44,270 nucleotides of DNA from a virus, in IMG/VR virus record IMGVR_UViG_3300045988_131882, one strand, 5' to 3'. Position numbers and translations under genes: made by a program. The notes under the pieces are model-generated. The model was not told the origin of the DNA. It worked only from the letters and a program-made list of their open reading frames with translations, and searched no databases. This document shows positions 3,497 to 33,464 of this stretch, piece by piece (positions within the stretch are counted from its first letter, which is position 1; every line of letters starts with the position of its first letter).

Positions 3497-4612
3497 ATGG
3501 CAAGAGCAAAAGCGCGGGCCGATGGGCTGATTGAACGAACAAGAACCTATGACGGCAAGCGAGTACACTTTTACGGCAAGACCGCGAAAGAGGTCTCCGC
3601 GAAAATTGACGAGTACGAACGCCAGCGGGAAGCGGTAAAAGAGAATGGCCCGCTGTTTGAGGATGTGGCCGGTGAATGGTGGGAGAACCATTCAAAAAAT
3701 ATCAAGACCGGCGCGGAAAGAGCCTACAATGGCAGCTACAAGGCCGCGCTGGAAGAGTTCAGCGGGTATCGCATGAAAGAGATAACGCCCGCGCTGGTGT
3801 CGCTGTGGGGAGAAAAATTCAAGGCCGCAGGGTATGCAGGGAAAACGGCAAGCAACGCCCGGAGCGTGTTGTCTTGTGTGTTCAAGTTTTGGTGCGTCCG
3901 GGATGGCGAAACATACAACCCGGTGACAATTACGGATTTGCCGCGAGGAATGAAAAAGGAGCGCCGGGAGCCGCCGACTGTGGAACAGCTGGAAACGGTC
4001 AAGGCACACCCGGAGGGGTTCGGGCTGTGTGCCTGGCTGTTCATGTATACGGGCTGTCGTTTGGGTGAGGTGCTGGCGCTGCAATGGCAGGATGTGGATT
4101 TTGAGAAAAACAGAATTAGCATAAGTAAAGAAGTGGCATGGGTGCATAATAAGCCGATTGTACAGATGCCCAAGACAGCAAGCGGCGTGCGTGCCGTGCC
4201 GCTGCTGTCGCCGCTGCGGGGCGTGTTGGAACCGCTGCGCGGGGCAGATAATGAGTATATACTTGGAGGGGAAAGGCCGCTGACAGGCACAGCATATCAG
4301 CGCAGATGGGCTTATTATTGCAAGGATGTGGGCATGGCACATTATACCGTACAGGTCCGGAAAAACAAGCACCGGGGCAAGGTGTACGAAACCGCGGTGA
4401 AGGTATGGAAGGCAGATGTCACGGCGCACCAGTTCCGGCACGAATACGCCAGCATGTTATATGCGGCGGGAATTGGAGAGCTGGAAGCGCAACGCCTTAT
4501 GGGGCATGCCGACATTACGACAACACGGCGAGTATATACACATATACGGGAACGCCAACTAGATACAGCAGGAGAGGCACTAGAAAAATTTATAAGCGAT
4601 AAAACGATATAA
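3497..4612 (+). CDS. int: Tyrosine recombinase (phage integrase)
   Basis: 371 aa. Catalytic signature: TGCRLGEVLAL (Arg), HQFRHEYAS (His-x-x-Arg), GHADITTTRRVYTHI (His, Tyr). It lies next to attP-like repeats. Confidence 0.92.
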   Translation: MARAKARADGLIERTRTYDGKRVHFYGKTAKEVSAKIDEYERQREAVKENGPLFEDVAGEWWENHSKNIKTGAERAYNGSYKAALEEFSGYRMKEITPALVSLWGEKFKAAGYAGKTASNARSVLSCVFKFWCVRDGETYNPVTITDLPRGMKKERREPPTVEQLETVKAHPEGFGLCAWLFMYTGCRLGEVLALQWQDVDFEKNRISISKEVAWVHNKPIVQMPKTASGVRAVPLLSPLRGVLEPLRGADNEYILGGERPLTGTAYQRRWAYYCKDVGMAHYTVQVRKNKHRGKVYETAVKVWKADVTAHQFRHEYASMLYAAGIGELEAQRLMGHADITTTRRVYTHIRERQLDTAGEALEKFISDKTI

Positions 4613-5181: not shown

Positions 5182-6828
5182 TCAGGCGGGGTTGTGGGAG
5201 GCAAGCTGCATAAGCGTTGCGGTGGTGGGGACCAGATGCCGCGCCATCGTGTCGTTGTAGCCGGTCTCGCCTTCGAAGCTGTCCACGACGGCGCGATCTG
5301 CCGTGCTCATGTCGTGATAGGTCTTTTTGCCGTAGGACGGAGGCAGCCAGCCTTTTTTCTGGGATGCGAAGATGTTGAAGGATTTCAGCACATCGGCGTT
5401 GGTGAACTCGATGTGACAGGTGCCTTTTTTGTAGAACGTGGCGGTGAAGTAGTGCAGCTTGATCTTGGTGGTCTGGCCGCTGGCCTCGGCAGCTTTGAGG
5501 GTGGCGCGGAGGTCATCGCCGTTGTAGGCGGTGCCGTTGGTGTCGAGGAAGTGAAGCGTTTTCTCGATGTTGGCGATCTCCTCCGCGATGTTGGTCGGGT
5601 AAAAATCGTCGGAGTAGACGCTGTAGGCATTGCAGCGGAAGATCATGTGCTTATCGACCTTGTAGGCGGAATTTGTGCACCAGCCGTTGTAATAGTGGAC
5701 ATTTTTGCTGTACTCGCTGTTGTAGTGAAGGTTGGTCCAATCATCAAAAAGGCGGATGATCTCGGATTCGATGTTGGAGACGATGTTGCGGGAGATTTCC
5801 TCGCGGATCGTGAGGATGTTGTAGGGGCTAAAATCGTAGTGGCAAAGGTCGTTGAGGCGCTTGTGGTAGTCGTTCTGCATCGTCTGCGTCATGGCGTCGC
5901 GGATTTGCGGAAGGTCGAAAAGCTGCTCCCAATAGATGGCGCGGAGATCGCACAGCGCGTCGTTGTAGCCCTTGTCGAGGGAGACACAGGGCGCGGGGGC
6001 GCTGCTGTCGCCCTGCTTTTTGGGTAGGGTGAAAAGCGAGGAAATACCGTCGTATTCTTCATACAGGCGGGCGAGACAGTCCGCGGCGGCGTTGTAGCGC
6101 TCGACTGCTGCCGTGAGGGGGTCATTGCTGACGAGGGCTACCAGGTCGGGCGCGGCCTGGTAGCGATGTGTCGTCTCGGCGTTGAGCTCTAAGCGGATGC
6201 GGGAGACAGGCGGCGCGGGCGGGATCGTGACGAAAACGAGCGCAACCTCCACCGCGGTTTTGCGGGTGGCGTGGGTGAAAGCGTCCTGCTTGTAGGTGAT
6301 CCGGGCGTTGTACTTGGCAAGCAGGGCGGCAAGCTCCTTGCGCTCGTTGGTGCAGGGGTTGCGGATCGTCTCGGCGTTGAGGATGCAGCGGACTTCCCCG
6401 CCCCGCTCCATGATGTGCAGGGCGTGCAGCAGGTGGCGCGCACCCTCGGAAAACGGCGGGTTCATGATGATCGCCTTGTAGTGGGCGCGGGGCGTGAAGG
6501 TGAGGAAATCGTCGTGGATGACGCGGAAGCCGTTTTCTTTGAGGGTGGCCCGGAGGGCGGCGGACTGCTCGATGCAGTCGAGCTGCAGGGCCTCCAAGCG
6601 GTACTTGTTCTTGGTTCTGTAGTAGTCGTCGCGGGTGCCGTCGCTGTTGTAGTGGATGTCGGCGGCCTTCTCGATGGCGCGGGCGAGGTCGCCGGAACCG
6701 GCGGACGGCTCCAGGATGGGGCCGCCTGCGTACTCGATGCTGTGGCCGTCGATCTTGAGACCGGCGAGCAGCTCCGCGGCGAGGGCCGGGGGCGTTGGGT
6801 AGTAGTCTTTGCTGTCGTTCGGAATCAT
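5182..6828 (-). CDS. SAM-dependent N6-adenine DNA methyltransferase (orphan, no cognate nuclease seen) with a large C-terminal extension
   Basis: Motif I is ILEPSAGSGDLA and motif IV is IIMNPPFSEG (NPPF). 548 aa. GGAGG lies upstream of the start. Confidence 0.85.
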   Translation of the reverse strand: MIPNDSKDYYPTPPALAAELLAGLKIDGHSIEYAGGPILEPSAGSGDLARAIEKAADIHYNSDGTRDDYYRTKNKYRLEALQLDCIEQSAALRATLKENGFRVIHDDFLTFTPRAHYKAIIMNPPFSEGARHLLHALHIMERGGEVRCILNAETIRNPCTNERKELAALLAKYNARITYKQDAFTHATRKTAVEVALVFVTIPPAPPVSRIRLELNAETTHRYQAAPDLVALVSNDPLTAAVERYNAAADCLARLYEEYDGISSLFTLPKKQGDSSAPAPCVSLDKGYNDALCDLRAIYWEQLFDLPQIRDAMTQTMQNDYHKRLNDLCHYDFSPYNILTIREEISRNIVSNIESEIIRLFDDWTNLHYNSEYSKNVHYYNGWCTNSAYKVDKHMIFRCNAYSVYSDDFYPTNIAEEIANIEKTLHFLDTNGTAYNGDDLRATLKAAEASGQTTKIKLHYFTATFYKKGTCHIEFTNADVLKSFNIFASQKKGWLPPSYGKKTYHDMSTADRAVVDSFEGETGYNDTMARHLVPTTATLMQLASHNPA

Positions 6829-8060: not shown

Positions 8061-8114
8061 TTTGTAGGCCTCCTGTTTGGTGTGGGGTTGTTTGCTTTCT
8101 ATGTCTGTATTATA

Positions 8115-8233
8115 CATGCTAGCATGAACAATGTCAACATGCTATCATGAAGATTGGAGAAATACACAATAATGCTAGCATGAATCTGTGCAATTTGTAC
8201 ATGCTTGCATGATTCAGCGCTCTGTGCTATAAT
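8115..8233. promoter_or_regulatory. Four copies of a 12-bp palindromic operator plus a sigma-70-type promoter
   Basis: CATGCTAGCATG at 8115-8126, CATGCTATCATG at 8138-8149, AATGCTAGCATG at 8171-8182, CATGCTTGCATG at 8200-8211. TTGCAT (8205-8210), a 17-nt spacer and TATAAT (8228-8233) follow. The fourth operator overlaps the -35. Confidence 0.75.
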
Positions 8234-8263
8234 GTGGGTACTATACAAAAGGAGGTGCGCAAA

Positions 8264-8464
8264 ATGTCGACCGATGCAAAACGGGCCGGAAATGCGCGAT
8301 ACTTGGCAAAGCTGAAAACTATTACAGTAAGGATGCAGCCAGATACAGCGGAAACCATCCAGCAGGCAGCAGCGGCAGCAGGGGAAAGCGTGAACGGCTA
8401 TATTCTGGCGGCGGTAGATGCGAGATTGCAGCGAGAAAACCACGGTAAGCCGCAAAACACTTGA
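8264..8464 (+). CDS. Ribbon-helix-helix (Arc/CopG-like) DNA-binding protein
   Basis: MSTDAKRAGNARYLAKLKTITVRMQPDTAETIQQAAAAAGESVNGYILAAVDARLQRE. AAGGAGGTG lies upstream of the ATG at 8264. It sits directly downstream of the operator array. Confidence 0.7.
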   Translation: MSTDAKRAGNARYLAKLKTITVRMQPDTAETIQQAAAAAGESVNGYILAAVDARLQRENHGKPQNT

Positions 8465-8489
8465 CAAAATCGCACCTAGGGTGTAAAAT
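8461..8489 (+). promoter_or_regulatory. Consensus-like promoter upstream of the packaging and late genes
   Basis: TTGACA (8461-8466), a 17-nt spacer and TAAAAT (8484-8489). A second TATAAT lies at 8493-8498. A roughly 56-nt imperfect hairpin follows (TATAATGAG 8493-8501 pairs with CTCATTATA 8540-8548). Confidence 0.55.
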
Positions 8490-8585
8490 GTGTATAATGA
8501 GCGAACCCGCGAGGAAGCGAGCTCCCGCGGCGGGGCTCACTCATTATACAGTTTTAACGGTTTAACGCAAAAAATCAGGTTTCAG

Positions 8586-8616
8586 GCGTCCAGCTTTACG
8601 GCTGGGCGCTTTTTTT
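8586..8616 (+). terminator. Rho-independent terminator between the promoter and terS
   Basis: GCGTCCAGC (8586-8594), a 6-nt loop, GCTGGGCGC (8601-8609), then T7 (8610-8616). Confidence 0.8.
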
Positions 8617-8643: not shown

Positions 8644-9198
8644 ATGGCAGAAAAAAAGGCGGCGGAGGCCGTCCAGCAGATGAGCAAGGCAGAACGCGGA
8701 GCGATTCGAGCAAAAGAGCAAGCAGAGCGCGGGGAACTGATTAGCAAAACAGGCAGGCGAATGAATCCGGCAAGCATTGCCAACCTGCAGCCGAGAACGC
8801 TAGACCAGCAACCAGCAGAGCGAAAAAGAGAGATACAAAGCGCGGGAGCAAAAGCAAGCAACGAGCTACAAGCAAAGCGCCGTACTATTAGGGATATATA
8901 TAACGACCTGTTGAAGCAGCCTGACGACATCAGCAGCTTAGAAGATCAGGACCTAGCAGAGAGAGCCCAAAAGATGGCCCAACAGAGAGGCGAACCTCTG
9001 ACGGTATACGACAGCATCGCAATAGCGATGGCCGCCAAGGCGAAGGCAGGAGACGTCAAAGCGGCGGTATTTGTGCGGGATTCTGCGGGGGATAAACCTG
9101 CCGATGCCGTGGAAATCACAGCCGAGACGATGACCGACGCGGATAGAAAAATGTTGCAGAACATCCAGAAGAGAATGCAAAAGGACGATGCAACGTAA
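8644..9198 (+). CDS. terS: Putative terminase small subunit
   Basis: 184 aa. GGAGGG lies 7 nt upstream of the ATG at 8644. The N-terminal half is basic and helical; KAGDVKAAVFVRDSAGDKP is typical of small terminases I recall. It lies upstream of terL. The assignment rests on position and motif only. Confidence 0.5.
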   Translation: MAEKKAAEAVQQMSKAERGAIRAKEQAERGELISKTGRRMNPASIANLQPRTLDQQPAERKREIQSAGAKASNELQAKRRTIRDIYNDLLKQPDDISSLEDQDLAERAQKMAQQRGEPLTVYDSIAIAMAAKAKAGDVKAAVFVRDSAGDKPADAVEITAETMTDADRKMLQNIQKRMQKDDAT

Positions 9199-9339
9199 AA
9201 TGGATGTTCGCTAAATAAGTATTTAGCGAAATAGGCGGCTTTCCCGGCATGGGGACAGCTGGCAACGGATAGCAGAAAAGCGGAAAGCCTGCTGCTGGCT
9301 GCATCAAGGAAGGGGCGGGGGTCTATTTTTTTTTGTGGC

Positions 9340-9741
9340 AAATTCCGAGCCGGGAGGGCGGCAGGGTAGGGGGTGGGGGTATCCCCCCTATGAGGGCGGC
9401 CCGGGGGTGTACGAAGAGCGCAGGCCAGTACGAATATGTCCGTTCCCCCAGCGCATTCAAAAATAAAATTCACACCTTCGTGCCCGGCTATGGTACAAAT
9501 TTCCATGTAAAATACAAGAAAACGCGGGATTGTATCACAAGCAGGAAACAAGAGTACATATCCCCCCTATGAGGGGACTATATCCTGGATAGCAAAGGTT
9601 CCCTGGAAAAATAAAATTTTGAAATTTTGAGTTTTATGGTGTGGGAGATAGTATTTTTTATTGTTTATGGGATGAGGGCCGTCCGCTTCAAGACCCAGCG
9701 GCCAAATACAAAGCGTTCTGCGAAAAGCAGGGCGCTTTTTT
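9340..9741 (+). ncRNA. Candidate structured non-coding RNA(s) ending at an intrinsic terminator; boundaries uncertain
   Basis: No credible ORF. A 17-nt motif is duplicated (TATCCCCCCTATGAGGG at 9380-9396 and 9559-9575), as is a 12-nt motif (AAAAATAAAATT at 9459-9470 and 9607-9618). AGCCGGG (9348-9354) is complementary to CCCGGCT (9483-9489). There are G-run/C-run hairpins and a terminator at 9713-9741. Confidence 0.35.
9713..9741 (+). terminator. Rho-independent terminator not preceded by any gene
   Basis: GCGTTCTGC (9713-9721), loop GAAAA, GCAGGGCGC (9727-9735), then T6 (9736-9741). Confidence 0.8.
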
Positions 9742-9926
9742 ATATGCTGCATAGCTGACCATTTTGGTGACGTTACCAAGATGGTATGAGCGCTGCGTTC
9801 CGCAAGCAACGGCGCGGCAAAGGTGCAAGACCTATGTGCAGTACCAACGCCGAGGATACAGGTAACAAGGCAGCATGGCCGGACGTGGCAAGCGCGTTCC
9901 CCATTAGGCGACACCTGTTAGGCGAC

Positions 9927-9967
9927 CCCCGCAAGCCTACTAACAGTGCGCAACCTGCGGGGTTTTT
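9927..9967 (+). terminator. Terminator-like hairpin with a large loop and U tail, directly upstream of the tRNA-like element
   Basis: CCCCGCA (9927-9933) pairs with TGCGGGG (9956-9962), followed by TTTTT (9963-9967). The 22-nt loop takes part in an alternative helix (CACCTGTTAG 9912-9921 with CTAACAGTG 9940-9948). Confidence 0.5.
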
Positions 9968-9971
9968 ATAT

Positions 9972-10029
9972 GCCCTTGTAGCTCAATGGCAAGAGCCTTG
10001 GTGTGCCGGTTCAAGTCCGGCTAAGGGCA
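9972..10029 (+). ncRNA. tRNA-shaped element with acceptor stem, D arm and T arm but no anticodon arm (58 nt)
   Basis: GCCCTTG-TA-GCTC-AATGGCAA-GAGC-cttggtgt-GCCGG-TTCAAGT-CCGGC-TAAGGGC-A. The acceptor stem is 7 bp (one G-U). The D loop has GG and the T loop has TTCAAGT. Only 8 nt stand where about 22 nt (anticodon arm plus variable loop) should be. Confidence 0.6.
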
Positions 10030-10382
10030 AAGGCGGGGTCGCTCCCCTCCGTAAAGCCGGACGGAATACAGACCGATAGCACTGGGGCGCATCGGAGAGC
10101 AACGATGGCAAGCCGCTCAGGAGCGCGGCGCGATGGCAGGTCGCAACGGGACTTCGAGAGCCTGAAAAAATCTGCCCGGCATCTGCTTGTGCGGACTCCG
10201 TTACTGACGCAGTTACGCATCGCCGGAACCCATAATATTAAAGCAGAGAACGCGAATCCGCACGCGGGGATAAATGCAGCGGATGAAAAAAGCGCTGCAG
10301 ACTTGCTATCTGCAACGGGTGAGACCGGCACAGCATAAACCGGTAGGGCGGGAAAGGGGAATTTGCAGAAGAAGGTGATAGG

Positions 10383-11873
10383 TTGACACTGGAAGAAGCG
10401 CGGGAATTGGAGCGCGAGGCGTGTAGAAAAGACCCGGTGTATTTTTGTGAAACCTATTGCCATATTGAGGACAAGGACGCGGCAGAGCTGATACAGCCGT
10501 TCACATTATGGGAAGGGCAGAGGAAGGCCATCCGCGTGTTTGCCGCGAACCGGCTTGTGTGCGTGCTGAAAGCGCGACAGCTGGGCTTTACATGGCTTGC
10601 GCTGGTTGAGGTGGCAAGGCTGGTTGCCTTGAACACAGGCCGCACTGCGATTGGCCTAAGCCGGTCGGAGGACGAGGCAAAGGAGCTTGTGCGCCGCCTG
10701 GCGGTGATACTGCGGTATATGCCGGAGTTTATCCGCGAGGTAGACACACCGGGCGGCAGTATCCAGGGGTGGACAGGGCCGGTGTTCTACAAAAGCACGA
10801 TGCAGGTAGTTGTGATGTGGCCGGATGGGCCGGAAAGTATGTTCAAAGCGTTCCCATCCAGCCCGGCGGCAGGCCGTTCGTTTACTGCTGACTTGATCGT
10901 GATAGATGAATGGGCGTTCCAGCAGTACGCAGAGGAGATTTGGCAGGCGGCATACCCGGTTATCAACCGACCGTTTGGCGGGCGGGTCATTGGCTTGTCT
11001 ACTATCAAGCTGGGAACGCTGTTTGAGGAAATTTACACAAACCCCGGCAACGGCTTTACCAAGCTGTTTTTGCCATGGTCAACTGACCCGCGCCGTAGTG
11101 AGAAGTGGTACGCACAGACAGTCGCTGCGCTGGGCGAAGATAAAACGATGCAGGAGTACCCTGCGACAGAGGAAGAAGCGCTCTCCGCACCAGGAGGGCG
11201 CTTTTTTAGTGAGCTTGATAAAGATACCCACTTGGTCGATGCACCGCCAACAGGGCCGCTTAGACGCTATGTGGCGATTGACTACGGCCTTGATATGCTG
11301 GCGGCTATCTGGATCGCCGTTGACCCGAACAACCATGCAACGGTGTACCGGGTGGACGGCGGGCCAAACAAGACGATAGGCGAGGCAGCAGACCTGATTT
11401 TGCGAGATTCCGAGGGCGAGGAAATTGATATGTATCTTGCACCGCCTGATTTGTGGAACCGCAGCCAGGAGAGCGGCAAGAGCCGTGCACAGCTGTTCAG
11501 CGAAGCGCATCTGCCGCTGGTGCAAAGTTCCCGCGATTTCCCTGCCGGGTGTGCGGCCATGAAACAATGGCTGCGCAAGGACGAGAAAACAGGGAAGGGG
11601 TATCTGACGTTCTACAAGCCGGGCGAGTTGTGGACGTGCCTGACGAAAATACAGAAGGATGATAAAAACCCTGATGTGTATGCGAAGAACCCGCACGGAT
11701 TGACGCATTTCCCGGATGCGTTACGCTATTTTTGCGTTTGGTGGACAAGCCCGGCGAAAAAGCCGGTGAATATTAAAAAGCGGCATTGGACGGCAGATAT
11801 GTACGAGGACTACAAGAACGCAAGCCCGAGTGACCGCAAAATGCTGATTGAGAAATGGGGGAGCCCTGCATGA
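10383..11873 (+). CDS. terL: Terminase large subunit
   Basis: 496 aa. ATPase motifs: VLKARQLGFTWLAL (Walker A-like) and DLIVIDEWAF (Walker B). A C-terminal nuclease-type region is present. TTG start with GAAGGTGA upstream. Confidence 0.88.
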   Translation: MTLEEARELEREACRKDPVYFCETYCHIEDKDAAELIQPFTLWEGQRKAIRVFAANRLVCVLKARQLGFTWLALVEVARLVALNTGRTAIGLSRSEDEAKELVRRLAVILRYMPEFIREVDTPGGSIQGWTGPVFYKSTMQVVVMWPDGPESMFKAFPSSPAAGRSFTADLIVIDEWAFQQYAEEIWQAAYPVINRPFGGRVIGLSTIKLGTLFEEIYTNPGNGFTKLFLPWSTDPRRSEKWYAQTVAALGEDKTMQEYPATEEEALSAPGGRFFSELDKDTHLVDAPPTGPLRRYVAIDYGLDMLAAIWIAVDPNNHATVYRVDGGPNKTIGEAADLILRDSEGEEIDMYLAPPDLWNRSQESGKSRAQLFSEAHLPLVQSSRDFPAGCAAMKQWLRKDEKTGKGYLTFYKPGELWTCLTKIQKDDKNPDVYAKNPHGLTHFPDALRYFCVWWTSPAKKPVNIKKRHWTADMYEDYKNASPSDRKMLIEKWGSPA

Positions 11874-12049
11874 GATGCCAGACCTGCGGCATAGAGTGCC
11901 GCACCGATTCCGAGCACGAAGTGCTGAAATTCATTTGCCGGAACAAGCAGTGCCCTGATTTTGGGCACGTAAGGGGGGAGAAAGCCCCCGACGTTGCGGT
12001 GATGCGGGTAAATTACCCTGTGGGAGCACAAGGAGAAGCGGGGAAATAG
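11870..12049 (+). CDS. Small zinc-ribbon protein
   Basis: The ATG overlaps the terL stop (ATGA). MRCQTCGIECRTDSEHEVLKFICRNKQCPDFGHV has a CxxC...CxxxxC pattern. GGGGGAG lies 6 nt upstream. Confidence 0.6.
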   Translation: MRCQTCGIECRTDSEHEVLKFICRNKQCPDFGHVRGEKAPDVAVMRVNYPVGAQGEAGK

Positions 12050-12119: not shown

Positions 12120-12131
12120 TACGATAGAAGA

Positions 12132-12163
12132 AGCGCTTACCAGAGATGGTAGGCGCTTTTTTT
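12132..12163 (+). terminator. Rho-independent terminator
   Basis: AGCGCTTACC-agagat-GGTAGGCGCT followed by T7 (12157-12163). Confidence 0.8.
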
Positions 12164-12205
12164 ATACAAATTTTTAGCCGGCGGGCGTTGTACGCGGAGG
12201 AACCT

Positions 12206-13050: not shown

Positions 13051-14052
13051 ATGGCAGTTATTTTTAGTAAGGCAAGCGGCCTTGCCAATGATTTTTGGAA
13101 TGAGTGGGCTGACCTGCTCACCATGAAAATGAAGGACACCGACAACGAGAAGAACAACGATGACGAGCTTGTGAAAGCGCTGTTCAATGTCAAGAAGTCC
13201 AAGCGTTTCGGCGAGAAGATCGCAGGTATGTCTACCTTCTCCAACTTTGATCTGGTCGATGAGGGCGCGTCCAGCCCGCTGGATGATTTCGGCGAGGTGG
13301 AACCCAAGCTTATCCAGCATTCGGAGTTCAAGAAAGCGTTCCGCATCACCAAGACGATGATCGAGGACAACCAGTTTGATATGGCCGCTGCCCGCGCGGC
13401 AGCCTATGTGCGTGCCTACAAGCGCAGCCGTGCTGTGTTTGCTTCCAGCGCACTGACCAGCGCCGCCGCGACCTTTACTTACGGCGCAAAGACCGGGCTG
13501 GATTCCACCACTGCGGACGGCAAGGCCCTGTTTGCCAAAGACCATACCGGCAATACCGGCGTTGCCGCACAGAGCAATGTGTTCACCAATGCGCTGGGCA
13601 CCGATGACGCGATGCTGAACAAGCTGGCGAATGTCGGCTTCAACTTCATGAATGCCTCCGGCAACCACATGGGCTATGTGTTCGACACCATCATCCTGCC
13701 TGCCAACCGCCCCGATATGATCGTGCTGGCAAAGAAGATTGCCAACAGTGACCAGCAGGTCGGCAGCAACTTCAACGATGTGAACGTCAACAAGGGTATG
13801 TGGAAGCTGATCGTTGACCATCATTGGCAGGCAGCGGAGGAAAGCAACCCCTATATCATCATGAGCAGCCAGGCCAACAAAGACCTGCTGGGCAACGTGT
13901 TCTATGACCGTACCGCGATGGAGACCTTCCAGAATGTGGACACGCTGACGCAGGATCTGATCACTTCCTGCCGTGGCCGTTTCAGCGCCGGTTTCGGAGA
14001 TTGGCGGCACGTTATTTTGGGCGGCGCTGCTGCTGGTAGCACGCTGACCTAA
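13051..14052 (+). CDS. Major capsid protein
   Basis: 333 aa. Strong AAGGAG ribbon. It follows the scaffold gene. Its composition and length are typical of HK97-fold capsid proteins. No database check was made. Confidence 0.7.
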   Translation: MAVIFSKASGLANDFWNEWADLLTMKMKDTDNEKNNDDELVKALFNVKKSKRFGEKIAGMSTFSNFDLVDEGASSPLDDFGEVEPKLIQHSEFKKAFRITKTMIEDNQFDMAAARAAAYVRAYKRSRAVFASSALTSAAATFTYGAKTGLDSTTADGKALFAKDHTGNTGVAAQSNVFTNALGTDDAMLNKLANVGFNFMNASGNHMGYVFDTIILPANRPDMIVLAKKIANSDQQVGSNFNDVNVNKGMWKLIVDHHWQAAEESNPYIIMSSQANKDLLGNVFYDRTAMETFQNVDTLTQDLITSCRGRFSAGFGDWRHVILGGAAAGSTLT

Positions 14053-14322: not shown

Positions 14323-16209
14323 ATGAAGAAAGACGATAAGCAGACAAAAGACCTTGAAAAATGGCAGGGCAAGCTATCCAGCGCGAAATCTGCGTACAGC
14401 GGCACGCTGGATAAGATGCGCAAGCGCGAGGCCATGTACTACGGCAGCCACGAGATACAGGGGGCCAAGAAGGATGCCACCAATGTGCGCAATATCATCT
14501 ATGAGCTGATTGAGAGCCAGGTGGATTCGACCTACCCGCTACCGAAGGTGACGGCCATCCACCGGGAGGACGAGGACAAGGCACGCAAGCTGGAAAGCCT
14601 TTTGCGCAACCAGGCACGCCGGATGCACTTTACCGAACTGAACGACCGCAGCGAGCGCACCGTACCGGTGCAGGGGGCTGATTTTTTCCATGTGGAATGG
14701 AACCCGGCGGCTGGGTATCACTGCACACTGGGCGACGTGGAAATCGAGTTGCGCCACCCGCGGCAGGTCATCCCCCAGCCGGGCGTGTACAAGCTGGACG
14801 ACATGGATTATGTGTTTGTGCAGATATCCAAGAGCAAAGAAGCCCTGGAAGCGCGGTACGGCATCAAGCTGGACACCGACACCGAAGATGCGCCGGATGC
14901 CAGAGGTGGAGACGATGGCAGCACCCACACAGGCGTTGTGACCCAGAACATTGTGTACTACAAGCATGATAAGGGCACAGTGGGGATGTTTAGCTGGGTA
15001 GGCAGCCAAGTGTTGGAAGATTTCCCCGACTATTACGCACGAACGGCGGAGGTCTGCACAAAATGCGGACGCCGCCGGGTGGGGGATGTGTGTGTCTGCG
15101 GGAATAAGAAATTCAAGGAACAGCCCGTGCAGACGCTTACCCTGACCCAGGATGTGACGATGAGCAGCGGGGAGGTTCTGCCCGCCCAGGTACAGGGCGA
15201 GGATGTGCCCATCATAAACCCGGATGGCAGCGTACAGCTGGATAATGACTCCGGGGAAGTTATCCTGATGCCCGGCGAGATGCAGGCCAATGAGATACCC
15301 GCCTACAAGCCGCACGGTTTCCCCCTGATTGAGCGGGTGAACATTGCTGCATCGGATATGTTTTTGGGCGTATCGGATGTGGACATTGTGGCCGACCAAC
15401 AGCAAGCCATCAACAAATACGGCACGAAGATACAGGAAAAGCTGCTGAAAGGCGGCAGCTGGGTCATTCTGCCGGAGGGTGTGCAGGCAGAACTGAACGA
15501 CGACGAGCTAAAAATCCTGCGCATAGAGAACCCGAGCCAGCGCAACATGATCGATGTCCTCAACGTGCAGCCCAATGTGCAGAACGACCAGAATATGCTG
15601 GAATATAACTATAACTGGGCAAAATCGACGCTGGGCATCACCGATGCGTTCCAGGGCAAGTACGATAGTTCTGCGACATCCGGCAGTGCAAAGCAGTTCA
15701 GCGCGAACCAAAGCGCGGGCCGTTTGCAATCCAAGCGGGAGATGAAGAACAACGCCTACGCCAAGTTGTACCGCAAGATGTTTGAATTTTTGCTGGCGTA
15801 TGCGGATGAGCCGTATCCCATGACGGATACCGACGTGGACGGCGAACAGCAGTATGGGCACTTTGACCGCATGGAGTTTTTGAAGCGGGACGCAGCCGGG
15901 GAATTGTACTGGAACGATGAATTTATCATTGAGGTAGACCCGGCAAGCAACCTTGCCAGCAACCGTGAACGGCTGTGGGATATGGCAAAGGTGGATTTCC
16001 AGGCGGGCGCGTTTGGCCCCATCGGCGATCTGAACACTTCAAGAACCTACTGGACATGGAACAAGAGCACCGGCTACCCTTACGCGGCAACGGTGCTGGA
16101 AGATATCAACAAGCAGCTGGAAGCACAGCGGCAGATGGAACAGGGGGTGAATGCTGTTGACCTGGAAGGAAATCAAACTGGCGACCTTACAAAAAATGTT
16201 CAGTTCTGA
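14323..16209 (+). CDS. Putative portal protein
   Basis: 628 aa. The size, the N-terminal pattern (KREAMYYGSHEI...NIIYELIESQVDSTYPLPKV) and the head-module position fit a portal. It contains a Cys4 insertion, CTKCGRRRVGDVCVCG. Confidence 0.6.
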   Translation: MKKDDKQTKDLEKWQGKLSSAKSAYSGTLDKMRKREAMYYGSHEIQGAKKDATNVRNIIYELIESQVDSTYPLPKVTAIHREDEDKARKLESLLRNQARRMHFTELNDRSERTVPVQGADFFHVEWNPAAGYHCTLGDVEIELRHPRQVIPQPGVYKLDDMDYVFVQISKSKEALEARYGIKLDTDTEDAPDARGGDDGSTHTGVVTQNIVYYKHDKGTVGMFSWVGSQVLEDFPDYYARTAEVCTKCGRRRVGDVCVCGNKKFKEQPVQTLTLTQDVTMSSGEVLPAQVQGEDVPIINPDGSVQLDNDSGEVILMPGEMQANEIPAYKPHGFPLIERVNIAASDMFLGVSDVDIVADQQQAINKYGTKIQEKLLKGGSWVILPEGVQAELNDDELKILRIENPSQRNMIDVLNVQPNVQNDQNMLEYNYNWAKSTLGITDAFQGKYDSSATSGSAKQFSANQSAGRLQSKREMKNNAYAKLYRKMFEFLLAYADEPYPMTDTDVDGEQQYGHFDRMEFLKRDAAGELYWNDEFIIEVDPASNLASNRERLWDMAKVDFQAGAFGPIGDLNTSRTYWTWNKSTGYPYAATVLEDINKQLEAQRQMEQGVNAVDLEGNQTGDLTKNVQF

Positions 16210-22535: not shown

Positions 22536-22721
22536 ATGAGTGATTTTTTAAAAAATCTGGCAGCGCTTATCAAGGTGAAAACCATTGTGACGCTTGTGGT
22601 TGTTGCGGTTTTTGCCGTGATGGCATTGCAGAGCAAATTACAGCCTGACACGGTCATGACCATTGTGACAATGGTCGTGGCCTTTTATTTTGGCACGCAG
22701 AGCGAGAAGAAAGGGGAATGA
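22536..22721 (+). CDS. Holin (two TM helices, charged C-terminus)
   Basis: MSDFLKNLAALIKVKTIVTLVVVAVFAVMALQSKLQPDTVMTIVTMVVAFYFGTQSEKKGE. Confidence 0.7.
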   Translation: MSDFLKNLAALIKVKTIVTLVVVAVFAVMALQSKLQPDTVMTIVTMVVAFYFGTQSEKKGE

Positions 22722-30282: not shown

Positions 30283-30285
30283 ATG

Positions 30286-30322
30286 GCGGGCAGTCACTTT
30301 TTGAGTGGCTGCCCGCTTTTTT
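30286..30322 (+). terminator. Rho-independent terminator
   Basis: GCGGGCAGTCACT (30286-30298) pairs with AGTGGCTGCCCGC (30304-30316), followed by T6. Confidence 0.85.
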
Positions 30323-32668: not shown

Positions 32669-33115
32669 TCAGGGGAGAATATCAAGCTCCCAGCCGGAGG
32701 GGAGTTTCAGAAGAAACAGGCCGGTGCGTTCCTGCGCTCGTACCCAGAAATCAGAACGGTTCAGTTCTTTTGCTGTGTCACGGCGTGATTTGCCCTCAAA
32801 GTAAATGGCGATCAGGACAGATTGCTGGTCGGAGTTGAGGGGGTTCATAGCTTCGTGCCGCTTGCAATAGGCTGTGTTCATCTCGGCGCGGGCACGGCAG
32901 TACCGGGCATAGGCTTTATCGTACCGTTCTGCCAGGCGGGCTACCGGGTCAGAGTGGGCGTTTCCTTTGGGCATACCATCGGCAGGGTGAGCCGACATGG
33001 CGGCGTTGGATTCATAGAATTTATCGCGGGCCTCGATAAAGGCTTCCTGATAGGCGGCGTATTTTTCCATCCATTTTTTACGCTGGGTGTTGCCGCATGG
33101 TACATTATTTCCCAT
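32669..33115 (-). CDS. Sigma-70 region-4-like late transcription regulator (ArpU/RinA-type candidate)
   Basis: The C-terminal LNSDQQSVLIAIYFEGKSRRDTAKELNRSDFWVRAQERTGLFLLKL is a region-4-type HTH. It is the last gene of the early operon. GGAGGA lies 8 nt upstream of the ATG at 33113-33115 rc. Confidence 0.6.
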   Translation of the reverse strand: MGNNVPCGNTQRKKWMEKYAAYQEAFIEARDKFYESNAAMSAHPADGMPKGNAHSDPVARLAERYDKAYARYCRARAEMNTAYCKRHEAMNPLNSDQQSVLIAIYFEGKSRRDTAKELNRSDFWVRAQERTGLFLLKLPSGWELDILP

Positions 33116-33464
33116 TGCTGATGTCCTCCAACCAGTAATCTTTTTTGCACTGCTCACAGGGTTTACCATTTCTTACACATTTGGTTTTATATGATTTATC
33201 AATCTTTTTAGGGCATATATTTATAATACCGTTTTTCATTGGGGCATCTAAAAAATACCTTTTCAAAGCATCTTGCCTTGTGCGCGGCCATTTTTCCGCC
33301 CATTCGATTAGCTTTTGTGTACGTTCTACAACCTCTATTGTGTCATAGTTGCATAAAACGCATCCTTTGCTTTTTCCATTACTGTTTAGCTGGCATACCG
33401 CGCAAAATCCATTATACATAGTGCAAAGCTGGGCACGGTATATTTCGTATTGAAAAGCGTCCAT
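33105..33464 (-). CDS. Cys-rich protein, paralogue of 36473..36820
   Basis: Shared blocks: EWAEKWP.TRQ, NGIINICPKKID, C..C...YW.E. Confidence 0.65.
   Translation of the reverse strand: MDAFQYEIYRAQLCTMYNGFCAVCQLNSNGKSKGCVLCNYDTIEVVERTQKLIEWAEKWPRTRQDALKRYFLDAPMKNGIINICPKKIDKSYKTKCVRNGKPCEQCKKDYWLEDISNGK

What the first reader, a model, noticed from the sequence alone, without database searches (positions are those of the whole stretch)
9199..10382. 1.2-kb ORF-poor, structure-rich gap between terS and terL: candidate large phage non-coding RNA locus
Elsewhere in this genome genes abut or overlap. Here 1184 nt between the small and large terminase genes contain no ORF with a convincing ribosome-binding site and protein-like composition; the track ORFs in this stretch are Arg/Pro/Cys-rich or antisense to one another.

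What the region does contain:
- Two + strand intrinsic terminators that follow no gene (9713-9741 and 9927-9967).
- A perfect 10-bp hairpin right after terS (TTCGCTAAAT/ATTTAGCGAA, about 9208-9231).
- A duplicated module: TATCCCCCCTATGAGGG at 9380-9396 and 9559-9575, each followed by AAAAATAAAATT (9459-9470 and 9607-9618).
- Long-range complementarity between AGCCGGG (9348-9354) and CCCGGCT (9483-9489).
- Many G-run/C-run hairpins.
- A tRNA-shaped element at 9972-10029.

Large ornate RNAs of unknown function (the GOLLD and ROOL classes) are known to occur in phages and prophages of Firmicutes, often next to tRNAs. This locus has that look. I cannot verify a match to either consensus by eye, so it could also be a new class, or a pac/TerS-binding region.
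Basis: partly seen in the sequence, partly recalled or inferred. Interest (0 to 1): 0.78.

Follow-up and report, generated by a model that had tools for sequence, protein, structure and literature searches.

The report
Mosaic small-RNA cassette array before terL
The 1.2-kb gap before the phage's large terminase gene is not one giant RNA but a patchwork of small non-coding elements shared by more than a hundred gut-phage contigs, including the known D12-methyl RNA motif and a very conserved tRNA look-alike with no anticodon arm, which I could not find described in Rfam or in the paper library.

Summary
The gap (9199-10382) is real and non-coding. It is not a GOLLD/ROOL-like giant RNA: Rfam gives no such hit even at E<=10, and only one segment folds better than shuffles.

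It has two parts.
- 9199-9737 is specific to this phage clade. It holds an invariant palindrome, a repeated C-run/TATGA/G-run motif and a strong terminator (T1).
- 9738-10364 is a roughly 630-nt module, 68-83% identical to the region upstream of the first packaging gene in other gut-phage contigs. In five of the six loci inspected, that region follows a late-activator-like gene.

In relatives this module carries 0-3 tRNA genes in slots after terminator-like hairpins. The window has none. It keeps a 58-nt tRNA-like element with no anticodon arm (9972-10029), the most conserved piece of the module. Independent versions occur in unrelated phage contigs, and their acceptor stems covary strongly.

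The module ends in the Rfam D12-methyl motif (10293-10356; 85 bits), 26 nt before terL. Elsewhere this motif precedes terS, portal or methylase genes, usually with a terminator about 40 nt downstream.

Best reading: a processed late-operon leader that carries stable-RNA cassettes. The mechanism is inferred.

The parts
8461..8611 (+). Context: sigma-70-like promoter (TTGACA-17-TAAAAT, 8461-8489), a leader of about 95 nt, and an intrinsic terminator (8584-8611) just upstream of the presumptive terS.
8644..9198 (+). Presumptive small terminase gene (terS). The assignment rests on position only.
   Evidence: Homologs abut terL (7-nt gap or overlap) in distant relatives L049, L084, L085, L088, L089, L102, L079, L097 and L112. 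There is no Pfam hit, and the only PHROGs hit is phrog_2412, of unknown function. The codon-type substitution pattern supports a coding gene.
9207..9230 (.). Perfect palindrome TTCGCTAAATA-AG-TATTTAGCGAA, 8 nt after the terS stop codon.
   Evidence: 100% complementary arms. It is nearly invariant in the 22 close relatives aligned. It never covaries, so the data cannot tell a DNA site from an RNA hairpin.
9272..9336 (+). Purine-rich GGAAAGC-type repeats, variable in copy number between relatives, followed by a G-run and a T9 run.
   Evidence: Alignment of relatives; sequence.
9363..9470 (+). G5-TA-C6 palindrome with copy 1 of the C-run/TATGA/G-run motif (9380-9396), the nearly invariant GTACGAATATGT, and AAAAATAAAATT.
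   Evidence: The motif occurs once or twice at conserved offsets after terS in 31 of the 32 close relatives listed, and nowhere else in the window.
9559..9618 (+). Copy 2 of the 17-nt motif (9559-9575) and of AAAAATAAAATT (9607-9618).
   Evidence: Two copies about 93-180 nt apart are present in 18 relatives.
9710..9747 (+). Intrinsic terminator T1 (12-bp stem plus T-run), ending in the junction TTTTTATATGC.
   Evidence: z = -3.2; junction repeat D11. In relatives, tRNA-Ser(GCT) starts right after this T-run.
9738..10364 (+). Shared non-coding module of about 630 nt, a chain of local hairpins. In other phages it lies upstream of the first packaging gene. In five of six inspected loci it follows a late-activator-like gene.
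   Evidence: 13 full-length homologs at 68-83% identity; partial matches in 200 held loci; flanking genes; consensus fold.
9790..9846 (+). Most widely conserved core of the module's 5' half. It forms two hairpins; the first (GCUGCG/CGCGGC) varies U.G / C-G / U-A.
   Evidence: 96-98% identity across phage types; matched in 143 held loci; fold; variants read.
9927..9973 (+). Hairpin T2 plus a U-run and the second TTTTTATATGC junction. It resembles the abiF RNA only weakly, below threshold.
   Evidence: Partial compensatory changes in the outer stem (columns 239-244 with 267-272). abiF scores 19.6 bits against a gathering score of 37, E = 2, and is not reached in relatives.
9972..10029 (+). 58-nt tRNA-like element without an anticodon arm. 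It has a 7-bp acceptor stem, a D-arm, an 8-nt linker (CUUGGUGU), a T-arm and discriminator A, with no encoded CCA.
   Evidence: 99.3% of cells paired; 8 of 16 pairs with changes on both sides; 0 of 500 shuffles as high; diversity 0.021, against 0.12-0.37 in the rest of the module.
10030..10292 (+). Variable hairpin cassettes between the tRNA-like element and D12-methyl. Non-coding.
10293..10356 (+). D12-methyl RNA motif (Rfam RF02950): two hairpins joined by the conserved linker GGGUGAG and followed by the tail AGGGCGGG.
   Evidence: 85.2 bits against a gathering score of 57; E 3e-14; 181 occurrences, 93 distinct variants in held loci; covariation in both hairpins.
10367..11873 (+). Ribosome-binding site (AAGGTGA) and the large terminase gene terL (TTG start at 10383).

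Best explanation
**What it is (shown)**
The gap is a mosaic, non-coding cargo region inside the packaging gene cluster of a temperate Oscillospiraceae (Gemmiger-like) phage.
- The 3' half (9738-10364) is a conserved module shared by many gut-phage contigs.
- In those phages the module lies between a late-activator-like gene (where I inspected the upstream side) and the first packaging gene.
- The module is an array of slots. Each slot is a terminator-like hairpin, then a T-run, then a tRNA.
- In relatives the slots hold tRNA-Ser, tRNA-Thr, tRNA-Trp, tRNA-Asp, tRNA-Gln or an odd 84-86-nt tRNA-like.
- In this window the only occupant is a 58-nt tRNA mimic without an anticodon arm.
- The module ends in the D12-methyl motif, 26 nt upstream of the terL start codon.

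**How it most likely works (inferred)**
1. The + strand is transcribed as a long leader or inter-cistronic part of the late transcript.
2. RNase P and the tRNA 3'-end enzymes excise the tRNA or tRNA-like elements. This releases stable small RNAs and cuts the message between terS and terL.
3. The remaining terL mRNA starts with the D12-methyl hairpins. These act in cis on read-through into, or stability and translation of, the packaging genes.
4. In most other phages the motif sits about 40 nt upstream of an intrinsic terminator. That is the layout of an attenuation or antitermination leader.

**Left open**
The half next to terS (9199-9737) is a clade-specific set of conserved DNA or RNA sites. 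Its role (end of the terS transcript, a regulator site or a pac site) is not resolved.
For: **Non-coding**

**The gap is a lineage-specific expansion**
The terS homolog abuts terL in distant relatives, but lies 1055-2356 nt away in the close clade.

**Mosaic structure and tRNA slots**
- blastn block pattern.
- ARAGORN finds 0-3 + strand tRNA genes inside the gap in relatives and none in the window.
- The slot of the armless element is filled by tRNA-Trp in L005 and L018, and by an 84-86-nt tRNA-like in L010, L013, L024, L029 and L032, with conserved flanks.
- The same 11-nt junction TTTTTATATGC follows both hairpins.

**The module is shared across phage types**
-.
- Upstream genes in the six loci inspected: DUF1492 / Sigma70_r4-like proteins in three, and a 129-aa ORF with no Pfam match in three. 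Domain matches are from one representative of each upstream type and of each downstream class.
- Downstream genes: GP3_package terS, SPP1 portal, ParB-methylase, D12 methylase or terL.
- Sigma70_r4-like and DUF1492 proteins are two of the Ltr families of late activators encoded just upstream of the late promoter. Late transcripts of phages phi11 and 80alpha are reported to be processed (PMC3753634).

**RNA-level constraint on the + strand**
- Covariation in the armless tRNA-like element.
- Covariation in D12-methyl, with 15 G.U cells on the + strand.
- U.G / C-G / U-A variation in the 9792-9819 hairpin.
- The tRNA-like element is the least variable part of the module.

**Terminators**
- A terminator-like hairpin follows D12-methyl in 67 of 109 distinct downstream contexts. 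Its stem shows a compensatory variant.
- The late region of the window contains internal + strand terminators at 12124-12165 and 22652-22682.

**Precedent for RNase P**
Against: - There are no expression data. Transcription start sites, processing sites and even transcription of the gap are all inferred.
- No sigma-70-like promoter was found inside the gap.
- In this window, terminators T1 and T2 lie upstream of D12-methyl, so the motif cannot help polymerase past them.
- In the window's own clade there is no terminator after the motif. Some relatives have a small ORF between the motif and terL, so the motif is not tightly coupled to the terL ribosome-binding site.
- The high conservation of the tRNA-like element could partly reflect recent spread by recombination rather than selection.
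- Covariation in inverted repeats does not by itself exclude palindromic protein-binding DNA sites.
- The window has no detectable DUF1492 homolog next to the module. The only candidate is a weak hit on the opposite strand at 32669-33169.
Confidence: 0.55

Rival explanations
1. The region, or at least 9738-10364, is one large structured non-coding RNA of a new class, comparable to GOLLD or ROOL, which folds as a unit.
For: - About 630 nt of non-coding sequence is conserved across many phages and lies next to tRNA genes.
- RNAalifold predicts one 12-bp long-range helix, 9790-9801 with 10119-10130.
Against: - No Rfam large-RNA hit even at E<=10.
- Internal cassettes are freely swapped, deleted or replaced: 267-478 nt between the two ends of the interval, in 54 variants.
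- The covariation term is only -0.73 kcal/mol.
- The long-range helix has no change on both sides and is broken in L171 and L187.
- Single-sequence folds are not more stable than shuffles.
- 72% of the columns in 10107-10250 are polymorphic.
Confidence: 0.07
2. The half next to terS (9199-9737) is the packaging recognition region (pac). The invariant palindrome, the GGAAAGC repeats and the duplicated C-run/TATGA/G-run motif would be binding sites for the small terminase on DNA.
For: - It lies immediately after terS and always travels with it (continuous homology from 8603 to about 9470).
- A perfect, nearly invariant palindrome and repeated motifs sit at conserved offsets, found only here in the window.
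- The repeats vary in copy number.
- TerL is of the T4-like Terminase_6 type. That this family is usually headful-packaging is my own knowledge.
Against: - The motifs stay almost unchanged while the terS protein diverges to 52-93% identity. A co-evolving recognition site would not be expected to behave this way.
- Distant relatives with terS abutting terL lack this region.
- No data on packaging ends are available.
Confidence: 0.2
3. The gap is decaying junk: a tRNA island that has lost its tRNAs. The armless element would be a deletion pseudogene, and the hairpins leftover terminators.
For: - The window has no canonical tRNA while relatives have up to three.
- The region is highly plastic.
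- The element has no encoded CCA.
Against: - The armless element is the most conserved part of the module (diversity 0.021, against 0.12-0.37).
- It occurs in about 100 copies of this type in at least two upstream contexts.
- Its rare changes keep the pairs.
- Independent versions of the same 58-nt architecture, with unrelated acceptor stems and often an encoded CCA, occur in unrelated high-GC viral contigs.
- D12-methyl passes its curated Rfam threshold by 28 bits.
Confidence: 0.15
4. The gap hides one or more small protein genes, for example ORF 10105-10338 (which has a GGAGAG ribosome-binding site), ORF 10003-10338 or the antisense ORF 10011-10463.
For: - Long ORFs exist on both strands.
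- Cell counts of mismatches in 10030-10292 look periodic: 551/206/394.
- Some relatives do carry small ORFs with ribosome-binding sites between D12-methyl and terL.
Against: - The periodicity disappears when polymorphic columns are counted (34/33/37).
- There are 18 one-nucleotide indels among 40 variants, and the ORFs stay open in only 25-27 of 40.
- The ATG at 10105 is absent from relatives.
- The three plus-strand ORFs scanned (9333-9572, 9786-10079, 10003-10338) have no Pfam hit; the antisense ORFs were not scanned.
- The plus-strand ORFs 9786-10079 and 10003-10338 run through the tRNA-like element, and 10003-10338 and 10105-10338 run into the D12-methyl hairpins.
Confidence: 0.03

Closest known systems
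D12-methyl RNA motif (Rfam RF02950)
   Same: Window 10293-10356 matches the whole 64-position model at 85.2 bits (gathering score 57). It has both hairpins and the conserved linker and tail. Both hairpins covary in 35 variants.
   Different: From memory, the family was named for lying upstream of D12-class adenine methyltransferase genes. The main text of the Weinberg et al. 2017 paper does not mention the motif, and its supplement was not available. Here it lies 26 nt upstream of terL. Among the loci retrieved, the downstream gene is more often terS (32), portal (19), terL (16-23) or a ParB-methylase (15) than a D12 methylase (4). So the consistent association is with the start of the packaging module.
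Phage tRNA gene clusters
   Same: Relatives carry 0-3 tRNA genes on the + strand at this position. The armless element sits in one of those slots, with the same flanks.
   Different: The window has no decoding tRNA. Its element cannot read a codon. The array sits between terS and terL rather than in a separate tRNA region.
tRNA-like domain of bacterial Y RNAs (YrlA)
   Same: Both have a T-arm, a D-arm and an acceptor-like stem without a normal anticodon arm. M. smegmatis YrlA, which has a 7-bp acceptor stem, is cut by RNase P and receives CCA (PMC4201824).
   Different: The element here stands alone at 58 nt. It has no Ro-binding stem, and the searches run for other purposes turned up no Ro60/Rsr gene, though no dedicated search was made. 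Rfam gives no Y-RNA hit at E<=10. In YrlA the tRNA-like module is embedded in a longer RNA.
GOLLD and ROOL large RNAs
   Same: They are non-coding, occur in Firmicutes phages and prophages, and often lie near tRNAs (PMC5737381).
   Different: There is no covariance-model match. The locus is modular and variable, without a conserved large fold.
Intergenic late-promoter region between ltr and terS in phages of Gram-positive bacteria (RinA / ArpU / LtrA-C systems)
   Same: In three of the six loci inspected, the module lies between a DUF1492 / Sigma70_r4-like gene and the first packaging gene, after a hairpin plus T-run. This is the layout described in PMC3753634.
   Different: The intergenic region here is about 800 nt instead of roughly 100-200 nt, and it carries tRNA(-like) genes and D12-methyl. 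In the window the module lies downstream of terS, with no adjacent ltr gene.
Cis-acting antitermination RNAs (HK022 put, Bacillus EAR)
   Same: From my own knowledge, put RNA is a roughly 70-nt element of two stem-loops that acts in cis on RNA polymerase, upstream of terminators. D12-methyl is 64 nt with two stem-loops and usually lies about 40 nt before a terminator, in an operon with internal terminators.
   Different: There is no sequence or model similarity and no functional test. This is a resemblance in how it might work, not membership.

Membership tests
D12-methyl RNA (RF02950) | Covariance-model score at or above the curated gathering score over the full model. | tested here: met
   85.2 bits against 57; model positions 1-64 of 64; E 3e-14.
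D12-methyl RNA (RF02950) | Two hairpins supported by compensatory changes. | tested here: met
   Hairpin 2: 3 of 5 pairs change on both sides. Hairpin 1: 2 of 8. The covariation score was reached by 0 of 500 shuffles.
D12-methyl RNA (RF02950) | Location upstream of a D12-class DNA methyltransferase gene (the origin of the name, as I recall it). | tested here: not met
   In the window the next gene is terL. Only 4 of about 110 retrieved loci have a MethyltransfD12 gene downstream. This is a contextual feature, not a structural one.
tRNA (RF00005) | Model score at or above the gathering score. | tested here: met
   43.1 bits against 29.
tRNA (RF00005) | Complete cloverleaf with an anticodon stem-loop. 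| tested here: not met
   The 18 model positions of the anticodon arm are replaced by 4 nt. ARAGORN finds no tRNA. The linker between the D-arm and T-arm is 8 nt.
tRNA-like RNA without an anticodon arm (class proposed here) | 7-bp acceptor stem, D-arm, short linker of 7-10 nt (8 nt in the 18 sequences aligned) and T-arm, with covariation across independent lineages. | tested here: met
   18 distinct sequences, 58 columns without gaps. 99.3% of cells are paired, and 6 of 7 acceptor pairs change on both sides. The D-arm and T-loop were fixed by the search pattern, so they count for nothing.
tRNA-like RNA without an anticodon arm (class proposed here) | Expressed and processed like a tRNA (RNase P cleavage, CCA end). 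| not testable with these tools
   No expression data. The window copy has no encoded CCA; several copies in high-GC contigs do.
GOLLD / ROOL / other large ornate RNAs | Match to the family covariance model. | tested here: not met
   No hit in 9100-10500 even at E<=10 with permissive filters, and none at the gathering threshold over the whole window.
Intrinsic terminator | G+C-rich hairpin followed by a T-run on the transcribed strand. | tested here: met
   T1: 9710-9738, 12 pairs, T-run; z = -3.2. T2: 9927-9967 has a 7-bp outer stem plus UUUUU but a long structured loop, and was not called by the scan.
abiF RNA (RF03085) | Model score at or above the gathering score. | tested here: not met
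   19.6 bits against 37, E = 2 for 9927-9963. Not reached in L092 or L024 either.
pac site / TerS-binding region | Packaging cleavage and TerS binding map to the motifs. | not testable with these tools
   Only indirect: conserved palindrome and repeats next to terS.

The most novel reading that the evidence does not exclude
**An undescribed class of phage RNA**
The 58-nt element at 9972-10029 would belong to an undescribed, widespread class: minimal tRNA mimics that keep the acceptor stem, D-arm, variable-loop remnant and T-arm (the tRNA elbow) but have precisely lost the anticodon stem-loop. Such an RNA could be handled by RNase P, tRNA 3'-end enzymes, the CCA-adding enzyme and modification enzymes, yet could never decode. 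Possible uses are:
- a processing signal inside late transcripts;
- a decoy or sponge for host enzymes or defence nucleases that recognise tRNA shape.

**A shared late-leader RNA**
Together with D12-methyl, the element would form a conserved late-leader RNA used by more than 100 gut Oscillospiraceae phage contigs, whichever packaging genes follow it. D12-methyl would act as a cis antitermination or attenuation element, not as a methylase-specific one.
Probability: 0.35. Interest if true: 0.75.

Novelty: new variant of a known kind. Interest (0 to 1): 0.55.

Why it matters
- **It replaces a vague lead with a concrete map.** 'Possible giant RNA' becomes a modular leader that carries tRNA slots and ends in a known orphan RNA motif.
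- **It gives D12-methyl a testable role.** The motif has no established function that I know of. Its consistent position is the start of the packaging or late module, usually about 40 nt before a terminator. Reporter fusions could test a role in late-gene read-through directly.
- **It brings to light a tRNA look-alike with no anticodon arm.** This is the best-conserved piece of the locus and recurs with unrelated sequences in distant phage contigs. If it is functional, it adds a new kind of phage-encoded tRNA mimic at a time when tRNA-targeting defences and phage counter-measures are under active study.
- **It affects annotation.** tRNA finders miss these elements, and Rfam's tRNA model reports them as tRNA.

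Tried and rejected
- **Known large-RNA families.** Rfam at the gathering threshold and at E<=10 finds no large-RNA family. A weak group II intron D1-D4 hit (20 bits, E 0.056) and other sub-threshold hits were treated as chance.
- **abiF RNA.** The 9927-9963 hairpin resembles abiF RNA, but it is below threshold in the window and in relatives.
- **Cultured phages.** blastn of the gap against GenBank phage records finds no match.
- **Small protein at 10105-10338** (good-looking ribosome-binding site). Rejected: the start codon is not conserved, there are frameshifting indels, and one variant has a 1-nt shorter D12 hairpin loop.
- **Apparent codon periodicity in 10030-10292**. It proved to be an artefact of counting related sequences many times.
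- **Window element as tRNA-Trp with a simple deletion.** Rejected: the acceptor and T-arm sequences differ, and only the flanks are shared.
- **AGGGCGG enrichment.** 11 matches against 7.5 expected in the window; not significant.
- **The 7-nt complementarity AGCCGGG/CCCGGCT.** Chance level.
- **A DUF1492-type late activator in the window.** Only a weak hit on the opposite strand at 32669-33169.
- **Literature on phage tRNA-likes without an anticodon arm.** Nothing relevant found in the held library.
- **Text describing D12-methyl.** The main text of the 2017 paper does not mention it, and its supplement is not held.
Full report
**1. The observation**

The gap runs from 9199 to 10382. It lies between ORF 8644-9198 and the large terminase gene terL (10383-11873; TTG start with an AAGGTGA ribosome-binding site; Pfam Terminase_6N; tblastn matches to terminase large subunits).

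- the 11+11-nt perfect palindrome at 9207-9230;
- the exact 17-nt repeat at 9380-9396 and 9559-9575;
- the second repeat AAAAATAAAATT;
- terminator T1 at 9710-9738;
- the hairpin plus U-run at 9927-9967;
- a tRNA-shaped element at 9972-10029.

Two claims do not exceed chance.
- The 7-nt long-range complementarity is what a 1.2-kb sequence gives by itself.
- The region is not 'structure-rich' by folding energy. Only the T1 segment beats its shuffles (z = -3.2). The other nine segments have z between +0.25 and -2.15.

**2. The region is non-coding**

Against homologous loci, substitutions fall 1072/592/2051 by codon position in terS and 3995/3096/11250 in terL, but 1280/1136/1381 in the gap.

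One sub-block (10030-10292) looked periodic when every sequence was counted. With polymorphic columns counted once, the classes are 34/33/37. Among 40 variants there are 18 one-nucleotide indels, and neither long ORF stays open. The ATG at 10105, which has a good-looking ribosome-binding site, is absent from relatives. The three plus-strand gap ORFs that were scanned have no Pfam match.

**3. Known RNA families**

Rfam at curated thresholds finds two things in the whole window:
- D12-methyl RNA (RF02950) at 10293-10356, at 85.2 bits against a gathering score of 57;
- 'tRNA' at 9972-10029, at 43.1 bits, with the anticodon arm missing.

A permissive scan of 9100-10500 (E<=10) adds only sub-threshold noise and no GOLLD, ROOL, HEARO, Y RNA or similar family. 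ARAGORN finds no tRNA or tmRNA in the window.

**4. Relatives**

The terL protein retrieved 80 IMG/VR loci and 32 loci from GTDB genomes. The genome hits are largely Clostridia, with the closer ones in Oscillospiraceae such as Gemmiger, Allofournierella and Ruthenibacterium. No cultured phage has similar DNA.

In distant relatives the homolog of ORF 8644-9198 abuts or overlaps terL. This supports calling it the small terminase by position, although it has no family match. In the window's clade the same two genes lie 1055-2356 nt apart, so the gap is a lineage-specific expansion.

blastn shows the gap is a mosaic. Blocks are present, absent or re-ordered from phage to phage.

**5. tRNA slots**

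In relatives the gap holds 0-3 tRNA genes on the + strand: Ser(GCT), Thr(TGT), Trp(CCA), Asp(GTC), Gln(TTG), and an odd 84-86-nt tRNA-like that ARAGORN calls His(atg).
- They sit directly after terminator-like hairpins. tRNA-Ser starts right after the T-run of T1.
- The window's tRNA-like element starts 2 nt into the same 11-nt junction TTTTTATATGC, which occurs after both T1 and T2.
- The slot holding the window's element is filled by tRNA-Trp in L005 and L018, and by the 84-86-nt tRNA-like in five others. The flanks are conserved but the inserts are unrelated.

So the region is an array of exchangeable cassettes. The window's version lacks every decoding tRNA.

**6. The tRNA-like element without an anticodon arm**

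The element is 58 nt:
- acceptor stem GCCCUUG / UAAGGGC (7 bp);
- UA, then the D-arm GCUC-AAUGGCAA-GAGC with the G18 G19 pair;
- an 8-nt linker CUUGGUGU, which I read as position 26, two bridging bases and a normal 5-nt variable loop;
- the T-arm GCCGG-UUCAAGU-CCGGC;
- discriminator A, with no encoded CCA.

Fifteen terL-related loci carry it almost unchanged, in two different upstream contexts. Its rare changes keep the pairs: U-A to U-G, and C-G to U-A in the T stem.

A pattern that fixes only the D-arm, a short linker and the T-loop found 108 stretches in IMG/VR. Most are this type. A dozen are unrelated versions from high-GC viral contigs. They have the same 58-nt architecture, different acceptor stems and, in several, an encoded CCA.

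In an 18-sequence, gap-free alignment:
- 99.3% of cells form pairs;
- 6 of 7 acceptor pairs change on both sides;
- none of 500 shuffles reaches the observed covariation;
- slid controls drop to 28-50% paired.

The acceptor stem was not part of the search pattern, so this is independent evidence for an RNA fold.

Within the shared module, the element's nucleotide diversity is 0.021, against 0.12-0.37 for the other segments. I found no description of such phage elements in the held literature. [quoted passage not shown]

**7. D12-methyl and the shared module**

In the loci now held there are 181 occurrences and 93 distinct 66-nt variants.

Both hairpins covary. In hairpin 2, ACCGG/CCGGU alternates with GUCGG/CCGAC and CCCGG/CCGGG. 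There are 15 G.U cells on the + strand. In one clade, hairpin 1 is replaced by the 3' end of a tRNA-Gln.

By sequence signatures, with one representative of each class checked against Pfam and window-type terL identified by blastp, the first downstream ORF is:

| Downstream gene | Loci |
|---|---|
| GP3_package small terminase | 32 |
| SPP1-type portal | 19 |
| The window's type of terL | 16-23 |
| ParB-N6/N4 methylase | 15 |
| Another terL (with a short terS between) | 8 |
| D12-class methylase | 4 |

So the constant association is with the start of the packaging module, not with the methylase.

In 67 of 109 distinct downstream contexts, a terminator-like hairpin lies about 40 nt after the motif, with a compensatory stem variant. 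The window's clade lacks it.

The tRNA-like element lies 220-430 nt upstream of the motif core in 54 distinct composite variants. The span from the start of the element to the end of the motif is 267-478 nt, with internal cassettes swapped.

Window 9738-10364 is 68-83% identical over about 600 nt to 13 full-length homologs, and 9790-9846 is 96-98% identical across phage types.

In the six other-type loci whose upstream side I inspected, the module follows a gene for a DUF1492 / Sigma70_r4-like protein (three loci) or a 129-aa protein with no Pfam match (three loci). In the five whose upstream sequence was read, a small hairpin plus T-run precedes the module. Sigma70_r4-like and DUF1492 proteins are two of the Ltr families of late activators. 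Those genes are described as encoded just upstream of the late promoter, with a terminator in the intergenic region. Late-transcript 5' ends in phi11 and 80alpha are reported to arise by processing (PMC3753634).

**8. Is the module one big RNA?**

RNAalifold on 14 full-length copies gives -121.9 kcal/mol with a covariation term of only -0.73 kcal/mol. The supported helices are local: the variable hairpin after GCUGCAUAGC, T2, the tRNA-like arms, two hairpins in 10130-10250, and D12-methyl hairpins 1 and 2. One predicted 12-bp long-range helix (9790-9801 with 10119-10130) has no change on both sides and is broken in two sequences. Given the cassette swapping as well, I read the module as a chain of independent elements, not a single ornate fold.

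**9. The half next to terS (9199-9737)**

This part exists only in the window's clade and always travels with terS. It contains:
- the nearly invariant palindrome;
- GGAAAGC-type repeats, variable in copy number;
- a G-run followed by T9;
- a G5-TA-C5 palindrome overlapping the C-run/TATGA/G-run motif, which occurs once or twice at conserved offsets in 31 of the 32 close relatives listed and nowhere else in the window;
- a nearly invariant GTACGAATATGT;
- terminator T1.

Nothing covaries here, so these data cannot separate DNA-level sites (a pac site or regulator sites) from RNA hairpins.

**10. Context in the window**

The window looks like a complete temperate phage genome:
- integrase at 3497-4612;
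- methyltransferase at 5182-6828, minus strand;
- an Arc-like gene at 8234-8464;
- major head protein at 13051-14052;
- portal at 14323-16209.

A near-consensus promoter (8461-8489) is followed by a leader of about 95 nt and a terminator (8584-8611) before terS. Further strong + strand terminators lie inside the late region at 12124-12165 and 22652-22682, with one at its end at 30285-30317. An operon with internal terminators fits some form of antitermination, but this is inference.

**11. Conclusion**

*Shown:*
- The gap is non-coding.
- It is a mosaic cassette array.
- It ends in a true D12-methyl motif.
- It contains a strongly constrained tRNA-like RNA fold without an anticodon arm.
- Its 3' 630 nt are a module shared with many gut-phage contigs, where it lies just upstream of the first packaging gene. 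In five of six inspected loci it follows a late-activator-like gene.

*Inferred:*
- The module is transcribed as part of the late leader.
- tRNA and tRNA-like elements are excised by RNase P and tRNA 3'-end enzymes.
- D12-methyl acts in cis on read-through, stability or translation of the packaging genes.

*Not supported:* a GOLLD/ROOL-like giant RNA.

*Open:* the role of 9199-9737, including the pac alternative, and what the tRNA mimic without an anticodon arm is for.

Noticed in passing
window 8461-8611: A near-consensus sigma-70 promoter (TTGACA-17-TAAAAT, followed by TGTGTATAAT), a leader of about 95 nt and a strong intrinsic terminator sit immediately upstream of the presumptive terS. The layout recalls a short terminated leader or small RNA ahead of a late operon.
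   Followed up: partly
window 8109-8137 (minus strand): A perfect 12/12 sigma-70 consensus promoter (TTGACA-17-TATAAT) points leftward. It diverges from the Arc-like gene at 8234-8464 and so marks a divergent control region.
   Followed up: no
window 12124-12165 and 22652-22682: Strong + strand intrinsic terminators lie inside the structural gene block: after terL and the small ORF 11855-12049, and in mid-operon. This suggests either antitermination or several late transcription units.
   Followed up: no
window 11855-12049: A 64-aa ORF right after terL has two Cys-x-x-Cys-type motifs (CQTCGIEC...CRNKQCPDFGH), like a zinc ribbon. It has no PHROGs match. A similar ORF follows terL in L012.
   Followed up: no
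L035 815-894 and 2830-2909 (minus strand); L092 1297-1349; L018 846-898: Relatives of this phage carry two twister-sister ribozymes (85 and 75 bits) or a RAGATH-5 RNA upstream of the packaging region. Neither is found in the window.
   Followed up: no
L013 4096-4181, L024 4524-4609, L029 4563-4648, L010 2938-3021, L032 4322-4407: An 84-86-nt non-canonical tRNA-like fills the same slot as the window's armless element. ARAGORN calls it 'His, anticodon atg', and Rfam tRNA scored the two copies scanned (L010, L024) at 39 and 46 bits. Its anticodon stem pairs poorly.
   Followed up: partly
L247 447-503, L249 1949-2005, L265 7792-7848: In high-GC viral contigs the tRNA-like element without an anticodon arm has an encoded CCA. 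It is preceded by a short hairpin ending in ACCA (a minihelix-like element) and followed directly by a ribosome-binding site and an ATG.
   Followed up: partly
L239 4840-6459 and L286 3844-5440: In two high-GC viral contigs the armless tRNA-like element lies next to an ORF of about 500 aa carrying an H-x-T-x motif (LHCTVAYLG), typical of 2H phosphoesterase / LigT-like RNA repair enzymes. This hints at a link to tRNA repair.
   Followed up: no
L001, L002, L004-L009, L016, L018, L020 (about 165 nt before terL); L014, L017: Some relatives carry a small ORF with a ribosome-binding site between D12-methyl and terL. One type is about 55 aa (MDCRFDFEIYGKSFFLLPSLSF...). The other is a hydrophobic peptide of about 40 aa (MLVLCVIVAYLLKMPFLWAALLLCCGF...). 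Both look like small inserted accessory genes.
   Followed up: partly
window 32669-33169 (minus strand): A 166-aa ORF weakly matches PHROGs 'transcriptional activator' (phrog_248, E 2.9e-4) and the 129-aa gene that precedes the module in other phages. It is a candidate late regulator encoded far from the packaging genes.
   Followed up: partly
L031 4733-4796 and L052 3251-3314: In these two loci the second D12-methyl hairpin is precisely deleted between two ACCGG repeats (GGGTGAGACCGGTAGGGCGGG). This is a natural deletion variant that could be used to test the motif's function.
   Followed up: no
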